Of a stretch of DNA of 64,000 bases, positions 35,374 to 62,727 are shown one piece after another. The DNA comes from Neophaeotheca triangularis (taxonomy: Eukaryota). The stretch's first letter is position 1; every line of letters begins with the position of its first letter. The position numbers were made by a program, and so were the translations under genes. The stretch spans positions 310,001-374,000 of the forward strand of contig BAAIJX010000006.1 of the NCBI GenBank assembly GCA_054600435.1. Reading direction: 5' to 3'. The notes beneath the pieces are model-generated. The model made no database searches and was not told the DNA's origin. It saw only the letters and a list, made by a program, of their open reading frames with translations.

Positions 35374-35577
35374 TCAGTCCGCGGCTTCGTCCTCCTTGGC
35401 CTCGTCGGCACTGCGCTCCCCATCGACCTTGGTCCCGTCCTCAACAGCGTGCTGCCCGCCATCCTTGGCATTCTCCGCCTCGGCCTCCTCCCCCTCAGCT
35501 TCCTCCTTGACCCCATTCATCTGCCGCACAACCCCACTGGAAGAATTCCTCTTAGCCTTAGCCGGCGGTTGGCCACC

Positions 35578-35609
<32 letters not shown>

Positions 35610-38605
35610 CACTAGCCGCCCCAGCACCGGCAGTAGTAACAAACCGCCCCGACTCCTTCTTGCGATTAACCTCCAACAACCGCTCCCGCTCGCTCTTCTC
35701 CTCTTCATTCTTCTTCTTAACCTTCTCCTGATGCTGCGCAAACTTCTCCATCTTCTCGCGCTTCCTCGCCTCCTTCTCCGCCTCTTTGCGCTTCTCCTCT
35801 TCGCTCTTGCCACTGTCTTTTTCCTCGCCGTAGTCTTTCCATTTGCGCCACCCGTCAAAGTCGATGAGCGCTTGCATGCAGCCCCATTCTTTCACTTTAC
35901 GCTCCAGCCAGACGAAATTGACGGGTTTGGTTAAGAAGTCGTTGCAGCCTGCCGCGAGGGCTTCGTGACGGTCGGATTGCAAGGAAGAGGCGGTTAAGGC
36001 GACGATGATGATGGGGGATTTGAAAAGCGTGTCTGGGCCCGTTTGGAGTTTGTCGTCTTCTTTGCTACGAGGTTTGGTTTCCTCGTTGGGGGTTTCATCG
36101 TCTTCGCCGTTCATGGTCGTGGTATTGTTGGTGGTGGTGCGGACGTCTTTGCCGTCGCTTCTGTGCTCGGCTGGGCTGCTAGGCGCGCTCGAGCTGAAGA
36201 CGCCGATGCCATTGACGCGCTCTAGGCGGCGGATCTCTTTGGTCGCTTGCAGGCCGTTCATGATGGGCATTTGAATGTCCATGAGCACCAAGTGGAAACC
36301 ACCGGCACGCCATTTGTCTAGAGCGATTTGTCCGTTCATGGCCGTTGTCCAGCGTACTTTTAGCCTCTTCATTAATCCCTCCAGGATACGCAAGTTGATG
36401 ATGTTGTCTTCGACGATTAAGACGTTGATTGGGGGGACCGAGCCGTCTAAGAGACCGGAGTATGAAGGGTGCGGGTTGGGTGAGTCTGTTCCTGCGGCAT
36501 TGGGTCGCCTAGACCGTGAGCGCGAGTCATTTTGATCTGGTTTGCGATTTTTCCTCGGTCGCGGAGGTCGATTGATATTCGCTGGCCCTACGGGTGGCGT
36601 CTGGGGAGTAGAGCTCGGCATGGCAGTTGGCTCCGCTTGCGGCGCGGGTGGAGTGGGAAGCGGAGGTGGTGGTGCGCCGACAGCCTCACTGTGGTGGTCA
36701 GAAGTCGTCGAGTCCATTCGGTTTCGTACACCCGATGGGCGATGCGGTAGATGTGCTTGAGGGACGAGAGTGTTGGGCTGCACCGCAACAGCTCCTCCGT
36801 TTGGGTGTGCCACAATGGTAGGCGAGGATGTTTGCTGGCGGTTGAACTTGGGTCTATGGTCCCGAGCATGGCGTCGCGTCCCTCCCGGCGAGGGAAGAGG
36901 CGGTACCTGCCCGGTACTGAGAACTGACATGGAGCGGGCGTGCTCGGGGACAGCATGGACAGCAGGGGGATGGTGACTGTTTCTGCTATCGTGAGAGCCG
37001 GAAGTCTGCGGCATGGTGGGCGGCACGATAGCAGGCATTGGGGGAAAGTAATCCGTCCCGTTCTCCAGAGGCCTGTAATCATCTGCAACCTGATAGCTTG
37101 GGTGCTGAAAAACTCTCGGGCTCGGCCGCGGCGTGCGCTTCGTAGGCACATTGATCAGCAAGGCGTCGTCCACCGTCTGCCCCCCGGGATAATAAGAGTC
37201 GATAGTCCTGCACATCTCTTCCTCGGGTCCCAGCTGCCTCTCATGCCGCTGTGCCCCATGTTCCGACCGCGTCACGATATGAAGCGTCATATCCGGCGCG
37301 TCAAACGTCTTGCCCAGCGAATTGGCGTATTTTCTCAGAATCATATCCCGCACGTCGTCCACCAGGTCATCCTCCCGTATCTGCACCAGCGTCGCCGAGG
37401 CACCGGGCCTTCGCACCCATATCTTGCGGTGGAGGGCGTGTGCCATGTCGGTGGGTAGGCCGGAAGTAAAGAAATCAAGCCCTCGCGTATCTGTCGGTAG
37501 AGCGGAAGGGAGGTCGATGGATTGCGGTTTGTTGTGTGAAGGTACGTCGATGAGGGTTCTGGCTACTTTGGCATTGACGTGATTGACCAAACTCTGCTGG
37601 CGTACGTTGGTATCTGTTGGCCGCTTGGAGGAGCGCGAGGTATCAAAGGGAGACAGAGAGCGACCGGTGGAGGTGGTGGAGTTGAGCCGGCTGGAGCGAT
37701 TAGTTTGCTCTTCTTGGTCTTGGGGAAGTCGCTGCTGCTGTTGAAGTGGTGCACTCTCAAGCGATGACTTGCGGGAGTGGGAACGCTTGGAGGCTTCGGG
37801 AGAGACAAGGTCGGTGTGTTGGCTGTTGAGGTGATGGAAAAGAGATTGTTAGCAACGAGCTCTCCCCACATGCACACACAGCTTCAGCTGCAGCTTCTCA
37901 GCCTCAGCTTCTCAGCGGGATGTCGTCTGCGTACAAGACAAGAGTACTAGTCAAGTCTTATGCACGGCATCGAGAGGGAAGTCTTGAAGGAACAAAGATC
38001 ACAAGCAGTGGCATGCAATGCAATGCAAGCCTGAAGTGGGTAATGGTGCAAACTTACTCGGCCTCTCCCGCGTCCCTATCATCAGTAGTAGTAGTTATCA
38101 CCTCAGCACCGCCAGCCGCGAGAGCATCAACCCCATCCGCGAAATCCGGCGTAGGCTGCTGAACGGTCAACGTAGGCTGCTCCTTGGTATCGAGCTGCTC
38201 GAGCCTCAACTCCTGCACCTGCGCGACGACAGCTTCAGACTTATCGCCCATCCGCTTGGACTTGCCGGACCGACGCGGAGAACTGCCCTCCTCCAAACAG
38301 GCAACGTCCCCCCCGTCCCCCTCAAGCTCAGGCAACCCAACACCACCCTCCCCCCTCTCACCCACACTCTCAGGCACCTGCGCTTGCGCCGAGTATAGCT
38401 CCCTCAGCCTCGCAAACGAGGAACTCTTCCGCGGCCGAGCGACAACAGGTTTCGGCTCGGGCGACGGCGACGGCGTGGTGTCGTGTTGCGGACTGTTGGA
38501 CCCGCTATTGCCGCGGTGGTCGCGGTGCTCGCTCGAGGAAGTCGTCGTCGTGGCTTGCGAGCGCGAGCGGCGGAAGAGCGGCCGTTGGAAGAGGCTTAGG
38601 CGCAT
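35374..38605 (-). CDS. SSK1: Two-component response regulator of the HOG pathway
   Basis: KIWVRRPGASATLV...DDVRDMILRKYANSLG block; receiver domain PPINVLIVEDNIIN...LVLMDIQMP...VALTASSLQSDRHEALAAGCNDFLTKPV...EWGCMQALIDFDGW. Exon 1 (38058-38605) is joined in frame by intron 37823-38057. Confidence 0.9.
35578..35607 (-). repeat. CAG trinucleotide repeat encoding polyQ in the SSK1 C-terminus
   Basis: (CTG)n on the + strand gives the poly-Gln run in the ORF. Confidence 0.9.
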
Positions 38606-44322: not shown

Positions 44323-45885
44323 TCACTTCTGGTGAACAGCAGAGCTGTTACCATTAGTGGCATTGCGAGCAGCATTGGCGGCATCGATGTCGAAACCGCA
44401 AGAAGATTCCGCAGCACCGCAAAAGCCGAAAGAGTCGGGAAGTCCACCTCCCCCTCTAACAGGCTTGGGCGCAGGTGGTGGGGTGAAGACAGCGGGAGAC
44501 CTTCTAGTGGTTCGACCTAGAACTGAAAGAAGTTGAGCTAGCTGTGGATTAGGATTGCGTTTGCTAAGAGCAACATACGTCGAAGTCACGAAGGTCGTGG
44601 CCGTAGGAGTCGTAGCAGCGATGGTGCGGACAATGCCTTCACCCTCGCCGTCGATGCCGGCGCAGGAAGCACCCTTGGCGCCTGGTAGAAGGAGGTTAGC
44701 ATGACGTTTGATCGAATGGTAGAGTGAGGTTGGTGACGTACCGCAGAAGCCGAATGTCGCGACCTGGTCCGCCTCCTTCTTGTCGAGGGGCTTGGGAACA
44801 GCAGCGGTCTGGACGGGGCGTTTGGCGTCGGAGTTGTCGATGCCAGCACCAACGCCGGCGCCGGCGCAGGAGGCACCTGGGGCACCTGTGTTGGATGACG
44901 TTAGAGAGAAGTCTTTGTCTGTGGTAGAGGATGGGTACGTACCGCAGAAGCCGAAACGAGGAGGGAGGGCAGAGCGTGCCTCAGTCAAAGAACGACGGCA
45001 ACGAGCGTCGGTCCAGGCCTTGGTGAAACGGGCGCACCAGCCGTACTGGGGTACAGCGTCGGCGGATCGTTTATCGTTGGCGGACAGGCGGCAACGAGTG
45101 TCGGTCCACGCCCTGGAGAAGCGAGCGCACCAGCCGTATTGAGGTACAGCCTCAGCGGAGCGTGCGTCGATGGACCTGCGGCAACGAGAGTCGGTCCAGG
45201 CCTTGGTGAAGCGGGCGCACCAGCCTTCACCAAACTGAGCCTTGGCCTCAGGAGAGCGCTTGTCGACGACATCCGGGAAAGAGACAGGAGAGCGCTTGAA
45301 GGCCGCAGCTACGTCCTTGGCTTCGAAAAGGGCCTCGGGCTCGGAAACCGGGAGGCAATTCTCGCCAGTCTCGTAGCACTGGTCGGCGCCATCCATGACA
45401 CGGCGGGCGACGAGTGCGGACGTGGTGGCGATGTCCTGGTCGAGTTCGGTGGAACGCTCGCCCTCAAAGGTAGCGGCATGGTCTTCACAAGCCATCTCCG
45501 CATCAAGAGGGGTACGATCACCGGCAAGACCACAGACCTCGTCGAGGCAAGTGGTCAAGAGCTGGTAAAAGTCAGTACAGCTCTTCTGTTGTGAAGTGAG
45601 GTGAAGGAAAGCTACTTACAGAGTAGACCTGAGGGTCTGGGCAGATACAGGCCTTAGTGAGGCCACAGTTGGCGACGTCGCCAACCGTGGTCCAGCAGTG
45701 CTCGACACAGCCTGGCAAGAAAGTTAGTAAGAATGGTTGAGGAGAAGAGGTGAGGTGAGGTGAGGTTATTGCTTACTTGCGACAGCCATGTCGGTGGTGC
45801 TGGCCGCCACACCTGTGAAGGTGGTGACGGCAAGGAGCTGCAACATGGCAAGCATGTGCAACGCCTTGGAGGTGAAGCCCATCAT
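44323..45885 (-). CDS. Secreted CFEM-domain, Kex2-processed repeat peptide precursor (alpha-pheromone-precursor-like polyprotein)
   Basis: Signal peptide MMGFTSKALHMLAMLQLLAVTTFTGVAA; introns 45712-45776, 45562-45619, 44886-44942 and 44682-44741, all GT..CT(A/G)AC..AG. 8-Cys module C-x3-C-x9-C-x5-C-x-C-x12-C-x4-C-x15-C; KR/RR sites followed by X-A/X-P dipeptides; two peptide repeat families. Confidence 0.8.
44990..45261 (-). repeat. Three coding tandem repeats of about 93 bp (GWCARFxxAWTDxRC peptides)
   Basis: Near-identical units such as GGCTGGTGCGCCCGCTTCACCAAGGCCTGGACCGAC on the minus strand. Confidence 0.92.
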
Positions 45886-61011: not shown

Positions 61012-62727
61012 TCAACGCACTGCATCCCTCCCCCGGTGATGATGGTGCTCCCTCATCTTCGAACGCCGCTCATTTCGTACCCTCCTGGCCTCCTTCTCCG
61101 AAACCCATCCATCAGGCCTCTCCCCGTTCTGCCATCCAGAACTCAATCGCCTTTTCTTCCGGCCATTGTGGCTTTTGTGGCTGCGCCCAGCGTGCGAGTG
61201 GCGCCCGCCGCTCGAACTAGGCTGCTCTTGCACCAGTCCCGCATCTTCTAGCAAGTCTGCAAAATCCATGCCTAGAGGAAAGTGGCTCACGGTAGAGCTG
61301 TGATCAGTGCAAGGTGAGAATCGCACAGGGAGTAACCAGTGGTGTAAGCGGTTACCGAAGATCTGGACTAGATTTTGGTAAGGACCCAAGTCCCAAGGAT
61401 TCATACCAGGTTCAGTCCGCAGGATTGCAAAAGTGCGTAGCACGGGGGCCGGTACGGGCGGTCGGTCCTGTGGCAAATGTAATGGGTAGGTAATCGTGCC
61501 CTGCATGATAGGGGAAATAGCCGGGGGCAGCCTTTGACGGTCATGCTGACCATGCTGTGATCGCGAGCGAGAAGAACGCTGATGGCTCTGCCGACTGAAA
61601 TATGTCGAATGACTCGGATCGTCGAGATCTGATGTCAGCGGCCTCTCGCTACCACCAGAGGTATCTGGAGGTGTGATTGTCCGTGTCGGGGGCGGTTGCA
61701 GTATCGATTGCCCGTGTGGCTGCATGTGGGGTGGCAGCAAGACTGCAAGGTGCATTACCCGGGACCCGACATCCAGGTTTTCGATTGTCGTTACGCCCTT
61801 CATTATATTTTGCAAGGTCATTAGCGTCATGCCCAGAGTGAACAATAGGAAAAATGCTGCAAGCCCAAGTCCAACGACCCAATGCACATTCCATACACCG
61901 CCTGTGTTACTCCTAGTTTCCGCCACGAAGAATGCGAGCAGAATCGTCGCATATGCTGTGAATAACGCAGCGTACGCTACGAATTGCACAAAGAACTTCA
62001 AGCTGTGCTCAGCCACCACCCCTCCTACCCAGGGGCAGAAGTGGTCCATCATAGCACAGCACCGGCCGACATCGGAGCAGTGATGACTTCGGTCTGGCTT
62101 CCAAATGTGACAGGTATTGCACCATTCCGGTAGTCCGTTTGGATCGCACACGAATACATCCTTTGAATAGAAGGCCTCAAGTCCGGGCGGAGGCGGCACT
62201 CGGCCTTGGAATATGCCCTCTCTGTCCAGCGATGGTCGCCTCTTCCCACCAGCTTTGTCCTGTCCCAAGCCATCAGATGTCTCGGAGCTGCGGTCTGCGA
62301 TAGTCGTCGGGGTGCAAGAGCGCGTTATGATAGTCCGATGCTGACCCTCCTCGTCTCTGCCTTCAGCAATGTAGGTATCCTGCCCGGAAGGAATGTAGCT
62401 CTTGTTGTCAACAGCGGCGGTCATGAGCAGTCGCAGGTACGTGACGGCCATGGGAATGAGCAGAGCGACCGTGGCTATAGGTATGGCGATGCCAGTAGCG
62501 ACACGCTCCTCCACATTCGCCGAGCTGGGGGTATTTATCAGGTAGTTGACTAGGAGCCCCTGATTAGCCTTGAAATGCCTTCAACTTCTTGCTAGACGGG
62601 GACACTTACTACATAGCGGATGTATGATGACCCAACAGGCATACGCGACTATGCATACTAGAAAGGCGGGTATGAATCTGCTAACTCCCTTGTTGATGGC
62701 CTGCCGCCGGCGCAGCTCGCTATCCAT
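61012..62727 (-). CDS. PFA5: DHHC-family palmitoyltransferase, Pfa5-like (DHFC variant)
   Basis: FYSKDVFVCDPNGLPEWCNTCHIWKPDRSHHCSDVGRCCAMMDHFCPWVGGVV, TTIEN and NPWDLGPYQN. Exon 1 MDSELRRRQAINKG is joined by intron 62550-62609. Confidence 0.85.

What the first reader, a model, noticed from the sequence alone, without database searches (positions are those of the whole stretch)
44390..44960. Peptide family B resembles alpha-pheromone and is only created by splicing two in-frame introns
Seen: the raw ORF reads FGFCG-TYPSS...NTG-APGASC and FGFCG-TSPTS...LPG-AKGASC. The inserts are phase-1 introns (44886-44942, 57 nt; 44682-44741, 60 nt), both GTACGT...CTAAC...CAG, at the same codon of the repeat, both multiples of 3 without stops. 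Spliced cores are FGFCGAPGASC and FGFCGAKGASC; a third intronless copy reads FGFCGAAESSC. Known: Pezizomycotina alpha-pheromones follow aromatic-C-x3-G-x2-C, which the first two copies match. Inference: the exon-intron unit was duplicated. Intron retention would keep the frame and so switch off only family B; the second intron even encodes a KR site. Caveat: dibasic sites flank these cores less tightly than family A.
Basis: partly seen in the sequence, partly recalled or inferred. Interest (0 to 1): 0.7.

Follow-up and report, generated by a model that had tools for sequence, protein, structure and literature searches.

The report
Pheromone-like peptide cores split by introns
A secreted repeat-protein gene of a black yeast carries three copies of the species' own alpha-mating-pheromone core, two of them interrupted by ordinary-looking short introns, but a conventional pheromone gene exists elsewhere and nothing supports a splicing "switch".

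Summary
On the minus strand, 44942-44886 (57 nt) and 44741-44682 (60 nt) are GTACGT...CTAAC...CAG, phase-1, in-frame and stop-free. Removing them gives FGFCGAPGASC and FGFCGAKGASC; a third, uninterrupted copy reads FGFCGAAESSC. The five-exon translation is identical to an NCBI protein named for Neophaeotheca triangularis (g6847t1).

The pheromone resemblance is real homology. The same species has a 301-aa protein (g6077t1) with a signal peptide and six [MG]GFCGA[KPR]GASCA repeats next to basic sites. Its relatives include Leotiomycete precursors whose repeats are published alpha-factor peptides. So a conventional ppg1-type gene exists elsewhere.

The window gene is a divergent paralogue or chimera. 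It has a signal peptide, a sub-threshold CFEM-like 8-Cys domain, three KR/STE13-flanked "family A" peptides, then the three family B cores. None of the three cores has a dibasic site within five residues after the second Cys, against 138 of 190 motifs in the family. They would therefore stay inside 37-, 51- and 58-residue Kex2 fragments.

Splicing rests on sequence evidence only; no RNA data were available. The in-frame, stop-free property is near chance, so the retention-switch idea is unsupported. I rate it a new variant of a known kind, of moderate interest.

The parts
44323..45885 (-). Whole coding region, five exons and four introns, stop codon included. It encodes a 440-aa secreted repeat protein.
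   Evidence: The exon join translates exactly to P0001.
45777..45885 (-). Exon 1: start codon and signal-peptide-like N-terminus (MMGFTSKALHMLAMLQLLAVTTFTGVAAS...).
   Evidence: Kyte-Doolittle 11-residue means are 1.8-2.05 for residues 8-22. No dedicated signal-peptide predictor was available.
45487..45711 (-). Eight-Cys CFEM-like domain (protein residues 38-92), interrupted by intron 45619-45562.
   Evidence: Pfam CFEM E 0.0041, 17.6 bits, below the cut-off of 22. Cys positions.
45355..45381 (-). QCYETGENC, a fourth C-x3-G-x2-C motif. It resembles the ECFEEGNEC spacer element of ppg1-type precursors.
   Evidence: Regex comparison over P0004-P0016. Motif-level resemblance only; BLASTP did not align it.
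44998..45237 (-). Three family A units, Q[FY]G(EG)WCARF[TS][KR]AWTD[STA]RC, at 45237-45181, 45141-45091 and 45048-44998. Each is preceded by three X-A/X-P dipeptides.
44866..44955 (-). Family B copy 1: FGFCG 5' part 44955-44943, intron 44942-44886, APGASC part 44885-44866.
44886..44942 (-). Predicted intron 3, 57 nt, phase 1, GTACGT...CTAAC...CAG.
44662..44754 (-). Family B copy 2: FGFCG 5' part 44754-44742, intron 44741-44682, AKGASC part 44681-44662.
44682..44741 (-). Predicted intron 4, 60 nt, phase 1, GTACGT...CTAAC...CAG.
   Evidence: The ortholog piece P0002 loses homology exactly at this intron's 3' boundary.
44506..44556 (-). Kex2-flanked 17-mer NPNPQLAQLLSVLGRTT, conserved in the ortholog piece.
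44398..44430 (-). Family B copy 3, FGFCGAAESSC, uninterrupted. The ortholog piece reads FGFCGAKGSSC here.

Best explanation
The gene at 45885-44323 (minus strand) encodes a lineage-restricted, secreted, Kex2-processed multi-peptide precursor. It is a divergent paralogue or chimera of the alpha-mating-pheromone precursor (ppg1/ccg-4 family).

Shown:
- The family B units are homologous to ppg1 repeats. Their cores are letter-for-letter the 10-mers GFCGAPGASC and GFCGAKGASC that are repeated in the species' conventional ppg1-type protein.

Inferred from sequence only:
- The two inserts are ordinary spliceosomal introns. One arose in a repeat unit and was copied when the exon-intron unit was tandemly duplicated. 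They are removed like the gene's two other introns.
- After signal-peptide removal, Kex2 cuts at ten dibasic sites. STE13-type trimming then frees the three family A 17-19-mers.
- The family B cores lack adjacent processing sites. They remain as C-x6-C disulfide loops inside fragments of 37, 51 and 58 residues; the last fragment carries two conserved N-glycosylation sequons.
- The canonical short pheromone is supplied by the other gene. The family B loops here are either co-opted for a different secreted function or are relics.
For: Gene model and introns:
- The spliced translation is identical to P0001.
- The inserts have canonical donor, branch and acceptor signals, lengths of 57 and 60 nt (the other introns are 65 and 58 nt) and G content of 0.10-0.11 against 0.27 in exons.
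- Aligning the two introns needs 1- and 2-nt gaps while the flanking exons align without gaps, so they evolve as non-coding DNA.
- Their interiors are more alike than chance: 10 of 2000 shuffles reach the observed score.
- The ortholog piece P0002 is 54% identical (65 of 121 positions) from G-APGASC to the C-terminus. Upstream of that Gly it reads MLPTNTPPS instead of FGFC, so homology breaks at the intron 4 acceptor.

Homology to ppg1:
- P0004, of the same species, has a signal peptide and six [MG]GFCGA[KPR]GASCA repeats.
- A search with P0004 returned 30 proteins with E <= 0.01, P0004 itself included, among them proteins named 'Pheromone' and 'ccg-4'.
- 30 of 30 carry at least 3 C-x3-G-x2-C motifs.
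- hhalign gives 84.7% probability, E 6.7e-6.
- The published alpha-factor repeats RCGYPGQPCG and RCGHPGQPCG (PMC10569646 passages) are present in P0022, P0027 and P0031.

Processing:
- Ten dibasic sites and the resulting fragment lengths.

Context:
- Of 14 neighbouring ORFs scanned, eight matched a Pfam family: response regulator, MFS (two ORFs), NIF3, CMS1 (two ORFs), SURF1 and UBX. Six had no match. No DUF3328 or tyrosinase was found.
Against: - There is no RNA evidence of any kind for splicing, expression or processing.
- The deposited gene model is probably ab initio. The genome announcement, read as its main text, mentions no RNA data (PMC13064199), so its agreement with my model is not independent proof.
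- The composite intron pattern is only about twice as frequent as chance in this window (21 matches against 10.7).
- P0004's genomic DNA could not be seen, so whether its repeats are contiguous in the genome is unknown.
- Atypical alpha-factor precursors whose KEX/STE13 sites do not directly flank the repeats have been described (PMC10569646 passage). Loose flanks therefore do not exclude release of an active peptide.
- The third core and its flanks are well conserved in P0002, which argues against a mere relic.
Confidence: 0.6

Rival explanations
1. The gene is a second working source of alpha-pheromone. Other proteases or exopeptidases trim the 37-58-residue fragments, or the extended forms themselves bind the Ste2-type receptor, so family B adds to or modulates the signal from the conventional gene.
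For: - The cores are identical to P0004's repeats.
- Copy 1 keeps the PG turn dipeptide that the Leotiomycete survey stresses (PMC10569646 passage).
- Atypical precursors with non-adjacent processing sites are on record (same passage).
- The third core is conserved, and in the ortholog piece it matches the consensus (FGFCGAKGSSC).
Against: - 0 of 3 cores have a dibasic site within five residues after the second Cys, against 138 of 190 in the family.
- No X-A/X-P dipeptides precede them, although family A in the same protein has them.
- Copy 3 in this genome has lost the central Gly.
Confidence: 0.15
2. The family B modules are decaying remnants of ppg1 repeats captured by an unrelated secreted protein (CFEM-like domain plus family A). 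The gene has nothing to do with mating.
For: - The gene has no relative outside one close species in 1.84 billion representatives.
- The processing sites are lost.
- Copy 3 departs from C-x3-G-x2-C.
- The architecture is unlike that of any of the 30 ppg1-type proteins.
Against: - Cores 1 and 2 are identical to the P0004 10-mers.
- The C-terminal module, including core 3, the 17-mer and two N-glycosylation sequons, is conserved at 54% identity in P0002. This points to purifying selection.
Confidence: 0.15
3. This is the first reader's switch: regulated retention of the two in-frame introns destroys only the family B cores while leaving the rest of the protein intact.
For: Both introns are 3n and stop-free in the reading frame, so retention would not truncate the protein. 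Intron 4 would add a KR site.
Against: - The property is near chance: 8 of 21 candidate introns are 3n, 22 of 63 frames are stop-free, and shuffles give 0.50 and 0.56.
- The introns are duplicates, so this amounts to one event.
- The two introns differ by frame-shifting indels, so no coding constraint is visible.
- In the ortholog piece the called ORF starts only 9 codons upstream of the acceptor. This hints, but does not prove, that the frame is not open through that intron.
- No RNA data exist.
Confidence: 0.05
4. The inserts are never spliced. The true protein is the 390-412-residue unspliced ORF, and the pheromone-like cores are an artefact of gene prediction.
For: The ORF stays open through both inserts. 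The intron signal pattern alone occurs by chance about 10 times in 128 kb. No RNA evidence is available.
Against: - Splicing recreates exactly the 10-mers found in P0004, and the spacing of the uninterrupted third copy.
- The G content and GC3 of the inserts are intron-like: GC3 0.53 and 0.40 against 0.65 in the CDS.
- Both inserts sit at the identical codon phase.
- P0002 diverges at the boundary.
Confidence: 0.05

Closest known systems
Pezizomycotina alpha-factor-like pheromone precursors (ppg1 / ccg-4 / ppgA family). The nearest member is the same species' protein named MBLNU230_g6077t1 (P0004).
   Same: - Signal peptide.
- Repeated [aromatic]-C-G-x-[PK]-G-x-x-C cores, with 10-mers identical to P0004's.
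- A KR site in the spacer between cores 1 and 2, which aligns with the family's KR (hhalign).
- A C-x3-G-x2-C spacer element.
   Different: - No K-x-KR directly after the cores and no basic or STE13 signal directly before them.
- Only three cores, two of them split by introns.
- An N-terminal 8-Cys CFEM-like domain and a second peptide family lie in the same protein.
- None of the 30 family proteins seen (P0004 included) shares this architecture.
KEX2-processed repeat proteins (KEPs), as defined by Le Marquer et al. 2019 (PMC6339444) and Umemura 2020 (PMC7329392).
   Same: - A secreted protein with at least 3 near-identical short peptides separated by KR/RR sites and X-A/X-P dipeptides (family A).
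- No DUF3328 gene nearby, as for pheromone-type KEPs (PMC7329392 passages).
   Different: - Two unrelated peptide families plus a Cys-rich domain sit in one precursor.
- Family B is not tightly flanked by processing sites.
- The nearest precedent for a mixed precursor is the Rutstroemia Ccg-4 homologue, which has extra Tyr-containing repeats (PMC7329392 passage). That one sits near a DUF3328 gene.
Atypical Leotiomycete alpha-factor precursors (Hymenoscyphus repandus type; PMC10569646, Fig 5 legend passage).
   Same: The KEX1/2 and STE13 sites do not directly flank the putative mature repeats.
   Different: Those are the species' only alpha-factor gene and have no added domain. Here a conventional gene also exists.

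Membership tests
alpha-factor-like pheromone precursor (ppg1/ccg-4) | N-terminal signal peptide | tested here: met
   An n-region with Lys, a 13-15-residue hydrophobic core (KD 1.8-2.05) and a small-residue c-region. This is hydropathy only; no SignalP was available.
alpha-factor-like pheromone precursor (ppg1/ccg-4) | Several copies of a 9-13-residue core with C-x3-G-x2-C | tested here: met
   Copies 1 and 2 meet it after splicing. Copy 3 has E in place of G. 30 of 30 family proteins have at least 3 such motifs.
alpha-factor-like pheromone precursor (ppg1/ccg-4) | Detectable sequence homology to recognised precursors | tested here: met
   phmmer against P0004, E 1.3e-4 over 1.84 billion representatives. 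hhalign 84.7%, E 6.7e-6. P0004 links to proteins named Pheromone and ccg-4. The homology covers the repeat region only.
alpha-factor-like pheromone precursor (ppg1/ccg-4) | Kex2/Kex1 site (dibasic) directly after each core | tested here: not met
   0 of 3 cores have a dibasic site within five residues after Cys2, against 138 of 190 motifs in the family.
alpha-factor-like pheromone precursor (ppg1/ccg-4) | Basic site and/or STE13 X-A/X-P dipeptides directly before each core | tested here: not met
   The cores are preceded by PPR, VAT and PDS. Only family A has the dipeptides.
alpha-factor-like pheromone precursor (ppg1/ccg-4) | Mating-type-dependent expression and activation of the Ste2-type receptor | not testable with these tools
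   No RNA run and no genome are held.
KEX2-processed repeat protein (KEP) | Secreted, with at least 3 repeats of a short motif separated by KR/KK/RR | tested here: met
   Family A occurs three times, in Kex2 fragments of 25, 34 and 23 residues. Each of the three family B cores lies in its own fragment.
CFEM domain protein (Pfam PF05730) | Score at or above Pfam's gathering threshold | tested here: not met
   17.6 bits against a cut-off of 22, E 0.0041, residues 35-80. Eight Cys are present. The fold test failed for lack of a confident model.
Fungal RiPP (dikaritin-type) precursor | A DUF3328/UstYa or tyrosinase gene in the neighbourhood | tested here: not met
   14 ORFs between 34.4 and 58.3 kb were scanned and none matched these families. 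Only long ORFs were scanned.
Spliceosomal intron | GT donor, CTRAY branch and YAG acceptor, fungal length, non-coding composition | tested here: met
Spliceosomal intron | Absent from mature mRNA | not testable with these tools
   One run was listed. Its single 268-nt contig does not reach the introns.

The most novel reading that the evidence does not exclude
The gene is a working 'poly-hormone' precursor of a black yeast. One transcript yields a new disulfide peptide family (family A, with a full KR + STE13 signature). It also yields larger glycopeptides that display the species' own alpha-pheromone loop, and these act on the Ste2-type receptor as agonist, partial agonist or competitor. The gene would thereby couple pheromone-type signalling to a non-mating function, such as density sensing, in a fungus with no known sexual state. 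Splicing inside the pheromone core could add a further level of control.
Probability: 0.12. Interest if true: 0.7.

Novelty: new variant of a known kind. Interest (0 to 1): 0.4.

Why it matters
Alpha-pheromone precursors are the textbook Kex2-processed repeat proteins and are usually simple: signal peptide, pro-region, tightly flanked repeats.

This gene shows how such repeats can be carried into a different secreted protein. Introns sit inside the mature-peptide codons and were copied together with the repeat.

If the embedded loops are active, it would be a natural case of pheromone mimicry or modulation from a second locus.

The finding also gives a concrete pheromone candidate (GFCGA[KP]GASC) for an order, Neophaeothecales, that is known only from asexual black yeasts. 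That makes the question of cryptic sex or autocrine pheromone signalling testable.

If the loops are not active, it is an ordinary lineage-specific secreted protein with a pheromone-derived relic.

Tried and rejected
RNA evidence
- The look-up of sequencing runs listed no RNA holder. It listed one run (X1, share 0.06, 'RNA? probably DNA').
- Read laying placed one 268-nt contig at 44275-44542 with 4 differences. It does not reach either intron, so it says nothing on splicing or expression.

Whole genome and orthologous DNA
- No genome is held for this window. The g6077 locus, Ste2 and the MAT locus could therefore not be inspected.
- The metagenome scan with the P0001/P0002 alignment matched 449 pattern stretches, but none was a relative.
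- The tool that could fetch the contig encoding P0002 is closed.

Protein and structure searches
- Word-based protein searches with the unspliced ORF found only P0001. The search for shorter proteins found only P0002.
- P0003 is a 1,173-aa Cys-repeat protein from ENA. I judge it a compositional false hit to family A.
- The ESM Atlas gave no usable hit.
- The single-sequence AlphaFold2 model is poor: mean pLDDT 41, with only residues about 31-80 near 70-80. Foldseek against the PDB gave no match with E <= 0.001. Neither is used as evidence.
- Pfam on the unspliced ORF and on exon 2 alone gave nothing.

Earlier scan findings
- None by place or by sequence.

Literature
- The peptide strings GFCGAKGASC, GFCGAPGASC, FCGAKG, FCGAPG and CGAKGASC were found in 0 papers.
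- Of GFCGVPG, GFCGLPG, GFCGAPG, FCGVPG, WCGARG and CGYPGQPC, only the last was found, in 1 paper.
- Le Marquer's Table S2 and Fig. 6, which hold the Dothideomycete pheromone sequences, are not held as text.
- Martin et al. 2011 (MBE) is not in the library.
- A search on pheromone precursor, intron retention, alternative splicing and ppg1 listed nothing on topic among the 12 papers shown of 8,399. This is not proof of absence.

Rejected on the sequence
- A GTATGT...CAG string at 44578-44523 would truncate the protein before core 3. I rejected it as an intron because that stretch is conserved as protein in P0002.
- GFCG at 61170-61181 (+) is a chance hit in a short frame.
Full report
**Observation**

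The feature lies on the minus strand. Reading 45600-43800 in reverse complement and listing ORFs shows an open frame 45495-44323.

The two inserts are 44942-44886 (57 nt) and 44741-44682 (60 nt). Each begins GTACGT, carries CTAAC 15 or 14 nt before its end, ends CAG, and follows the first base of the Gly codon after FGFC.

Upstream, two further introns (45776-45712, 65 nt; 45619-45562, 58 nt) join a start codon at 45885 to this frame. A script that joined the five exons by coordinate gave a 440-residue protein. It is identical to P0001, which the protein search returned under the NCBI name 'hypothetical protein MBLNU230_g6847t1 [Neophaeotheca triangularis]'. This fungus is a Dothideomycete of the order Neophaeothecales.

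**Are the inserts introns?**

No RNA evidence could be had. The one run listed holds a 268-nt contig at 44275-44542 that stops short of both inserts. The genome announcement for the named species, read as its main text, mentions no RNA data, so the deposited model is probably ab initio (PMC13064199).

The signal pattern alone is weak. A donor/branch/acceptor regular expression matches 21 times in the window, against 10.7 +/- 3.2 (maximum 20) in 100 simulated sequences.

Several other observations point the same way:
- **Composition.** G content is 0.11 and 0.10 in the inserts, 0.06 and 0.16 in the gene's two other introns, and 0.27 in the exons. Third-position GC in the retained frame is 0.53 and 0.40, against 0.65 in the CDS.
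- **Position.** Both inserts sit at the same phase of the same codon of a repeat whose third copy is uninterrupted.
- **Result of removal.** Taking them out recreates GFCGAPGASC and GFCGAKGASC. These 10-mers occur contiguously and repeatedly in another predicted protein of the same species, P0004, whose DNA could not be seen.
- **Mode of divergence.** The two inserts align to each other only with 1- and 2-nt gaps, while the flanking exon parts align without gaps. They therefore diverge as non-coding DNA.
- **Ortholog boundary.** A 122-residue ortholog piece from a Logan assembly (P0002) is 54% identical (65 of 121 positions) from G-APGASC to the C-terminus. Directly upstream of that Gly it reads MLPTNTPPS instead of FGFC, so homology ends at the acceptor of intron 4.
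- **Dependence on splicing.** The unspliced six-frame translation of the whole window holds no [FWY]-C-x3-G-x2-C at all, so the motif does exist only after splicing.

I take the inserts to be real introns with about 0.9 confidence, on sequence grounds only.

**What family B is**

An exhaustive phmmer search of 1.84 billion representatives with P0001 gave four proteins at E <= 0.001: P0001 itself, P0002, a 1,173-residue Cys-repeat protein that I regard as spurious (P0003), and P0004 (E 1.3e-4, aligned to residues 267-329).

P0004 carries the NCBI name 'MBLNU230_g6077t1 [Neophaeotheca triangularis]'. It is 301 residues long, starts with MKFSASLLALVAFTAVQA, and holds six [MG]GFCGA[KPR]GASCA units. 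These are preceded by basic residues and mostly followed by K-x-KR or R, with EAVAEAVAEP-type spacers.

A word-based search with P0004 returned 30 proteins at E <= 0.01 among 8,000 scored candidates, P0004 itself included:
- Dothideomycete proteins from Rachicladosporium, Saxophila and Acidomyces.
- Leotiomycete proteins that UniRef names 'Pheromone' (Pseudogymnoascus destructans) and 'Clock-controlled pheromone ccg-4' (Mollisia scopiformis).

P0022, P0027 and P0031 carry RCGYPGQPCG or RCGHPGQPCG. The Leotiomycete survey lists these as mature alpha-factor repeats (PMC10569646 passages). Le Marquer et al. state that 13 non-Pleosporales Dothideomycetes have a two-cysteine alpha pheromone like that of Leotiomycetes and Sordariomycetes (PMC6339444 passages). 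I could not see their sequences.

All 30 proteins hold at least three C-x3-G-x2-C motifs, 190 in total including spacer motifs. The residue before the first Cys is F 67, R 52, W 12, Y 11 and L 11 times. Gly follows the first Cys in 127 of 190.

A profile of the 13 closest members aligns to P0001 residues 267-333 with 84.7% probability and E 6.7e-6. The KR between cores 1 and 2 falls on the family's KR.

**What the gene is**

P0001 is not a conventional precursor. In order along the protein it has:
- A signal-peptide-like N-terminus.
- An 8-Cys region that matches Pfam CFEM below threshold (17.6 bits against 22).
- A QCYETGENC...AAAFKR element that resembles the ECFEEGNEC...KR spacer of the Dothideomycete ppg1-type proteins. 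This is a motif-level resemblance only.
- Three family A units, Q[FY]G(EG)WCARF[TS][KR]AWTD[STA]RC. Each is preceded by three X-A/X-P dipeptides (SPEAKA, SAEAVP, SADAVP) and bounded by KR/RR.
- The three family B cores.

Cutting at the ten dibasic sites gives fragments in which the B cores lie inside 37, 51 and 58 residues. None of the three cores has a dibasic site within five residues after the second Cys, against 138 of 190 motifs in the family. None is preceded by STE13 dipeptides.

The C-terminal module is conserved in P0002. That includes a Kex2-flanked 17-mer (NPNPQLAQLLSVLGRTT against DPNPQIAQLLSAIGRTS), core 3 with its flanks, and two N-glycosylation sequons.

Of the 14 neighbouring ORFs scanned, eight matched a Pfam family: response regulator, MFS (two ORFs), NIF3, CMS1 (two ORFs), SURF1 and UBX. 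Six had no match. None was a DUF3328 or tyrosinase gene, so this is not a RiPP cluster. Outside this species and the P0002 source no relative was found.

**How it most likely works**

- *Shown:* the gene structure by sequence, the homology of the B units to ppg1 repeats, and the positions of dibasic sites.
- *Inferred:* secretion, Kex2 and STE13 processing, release of family A peptides, retention of B cores as C-x6-C loops in larger fragments, and constitutive splicing.

The exon-intron unit was duplicated. The intron interiors score 7 against a null of -3.2 +/- 3.7, and 10 of 2000 shuffles reach that score.

The switch idea has no support. In this window 8 of 21 candidate introns are 3n and 22 of 63 frames are stop-free. 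Shuffled interiors of these two introns stay stop-free with P 0.50 and 0.56. A 3n, stop-free intron is thus expected roughly one time in six, and the two are copies of one event.

**Comparison and novelty**

The gene works like a KEP and is related to alpha-pheromone precursors. It fails two defining processing features of that family for the B cores, so I do not file it as a conventional ppg1.

Two precedents exist. One is precursors with non-adjacent sites (PMC10569646 passage). The other is a ccg-4 homologue with extra repeat types (PMC7329392 passage).

I found no description of introns inside pheromone core codons or of a CFEM-like domain on such a precursor. My searches for this were limited.

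It is a new variant of a known kind, with interest 0.4.

Noticed in passing
window 45237-44998 (-): Family A: three copies of Q[FY]G(EG)WCARF[TS][KR]AWTD[STA]RC. Each follows three X-A/X-P dipeptides (SPEAKA, SAEAVP, SADAVP) and KR/RR sites, a fuller Kex2 + STE13 signature than family B has. No relative was found in 1.84 billion representatives, apart from a hit I judge spurious.
   Followed up: partly
window 44556-44506 (-): A single Kex2-flanked 17-mer, KR-NPNPQLAQLLSVLGRTT-RR, is the best-conserved stretch between P0001 and the ortholog piece P0002 (KR-DPNPQIAQLLSAIGRTS-KK). It is a possible third released peptide.
   Followed up: no
window 45381-45355 (-): QCYETGENC is itself C-x3-G-x2-C and is followed by ...AAAFKR. 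It resembles the conserved ECFEEGNEC...KR spacer element of Dothideomycete ppg1-type proteins. This hints that more than the repeats derives from ppg1.
   Followed up: partly
window 45711-45487 (-): An eight-Cys N-terminal domain gives a sub-threshold Pfam CFEM match (E 0.0041, 17.6 bits against 22). None of the 30 ppg1-type proteins seen shows such an N-terminal domain.
   Followed up: partly
window 44578-44523 (-): A GTATGT...CAG string of 56 nt inside the coding region would shift the frame to an early stop. The stretch is conserved as protein in P0002, so it is probably not an intron.
   Followed up: yes
P0004 (not in the window): The same species encodes a conventional ppg1-type precursor with six [MG]GFCGA[KPR]GASCA repeats. 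I recall, from no call, that the genus is known only from asexual morphs. If so, this is a candidate for cryptic sex or autocrine pheromone signalling.
   Followed up: partly
window 35377-37848 (-): A long ORF with a response-regulator receiver domain (E 1.1e-19) lies about 6.5 kb downstream of the gene's 3' end. MFS transporter, NIF3, CMS1, SURF1 and UBX genes make up the rest of the neighbourhood.
   Followed up: no
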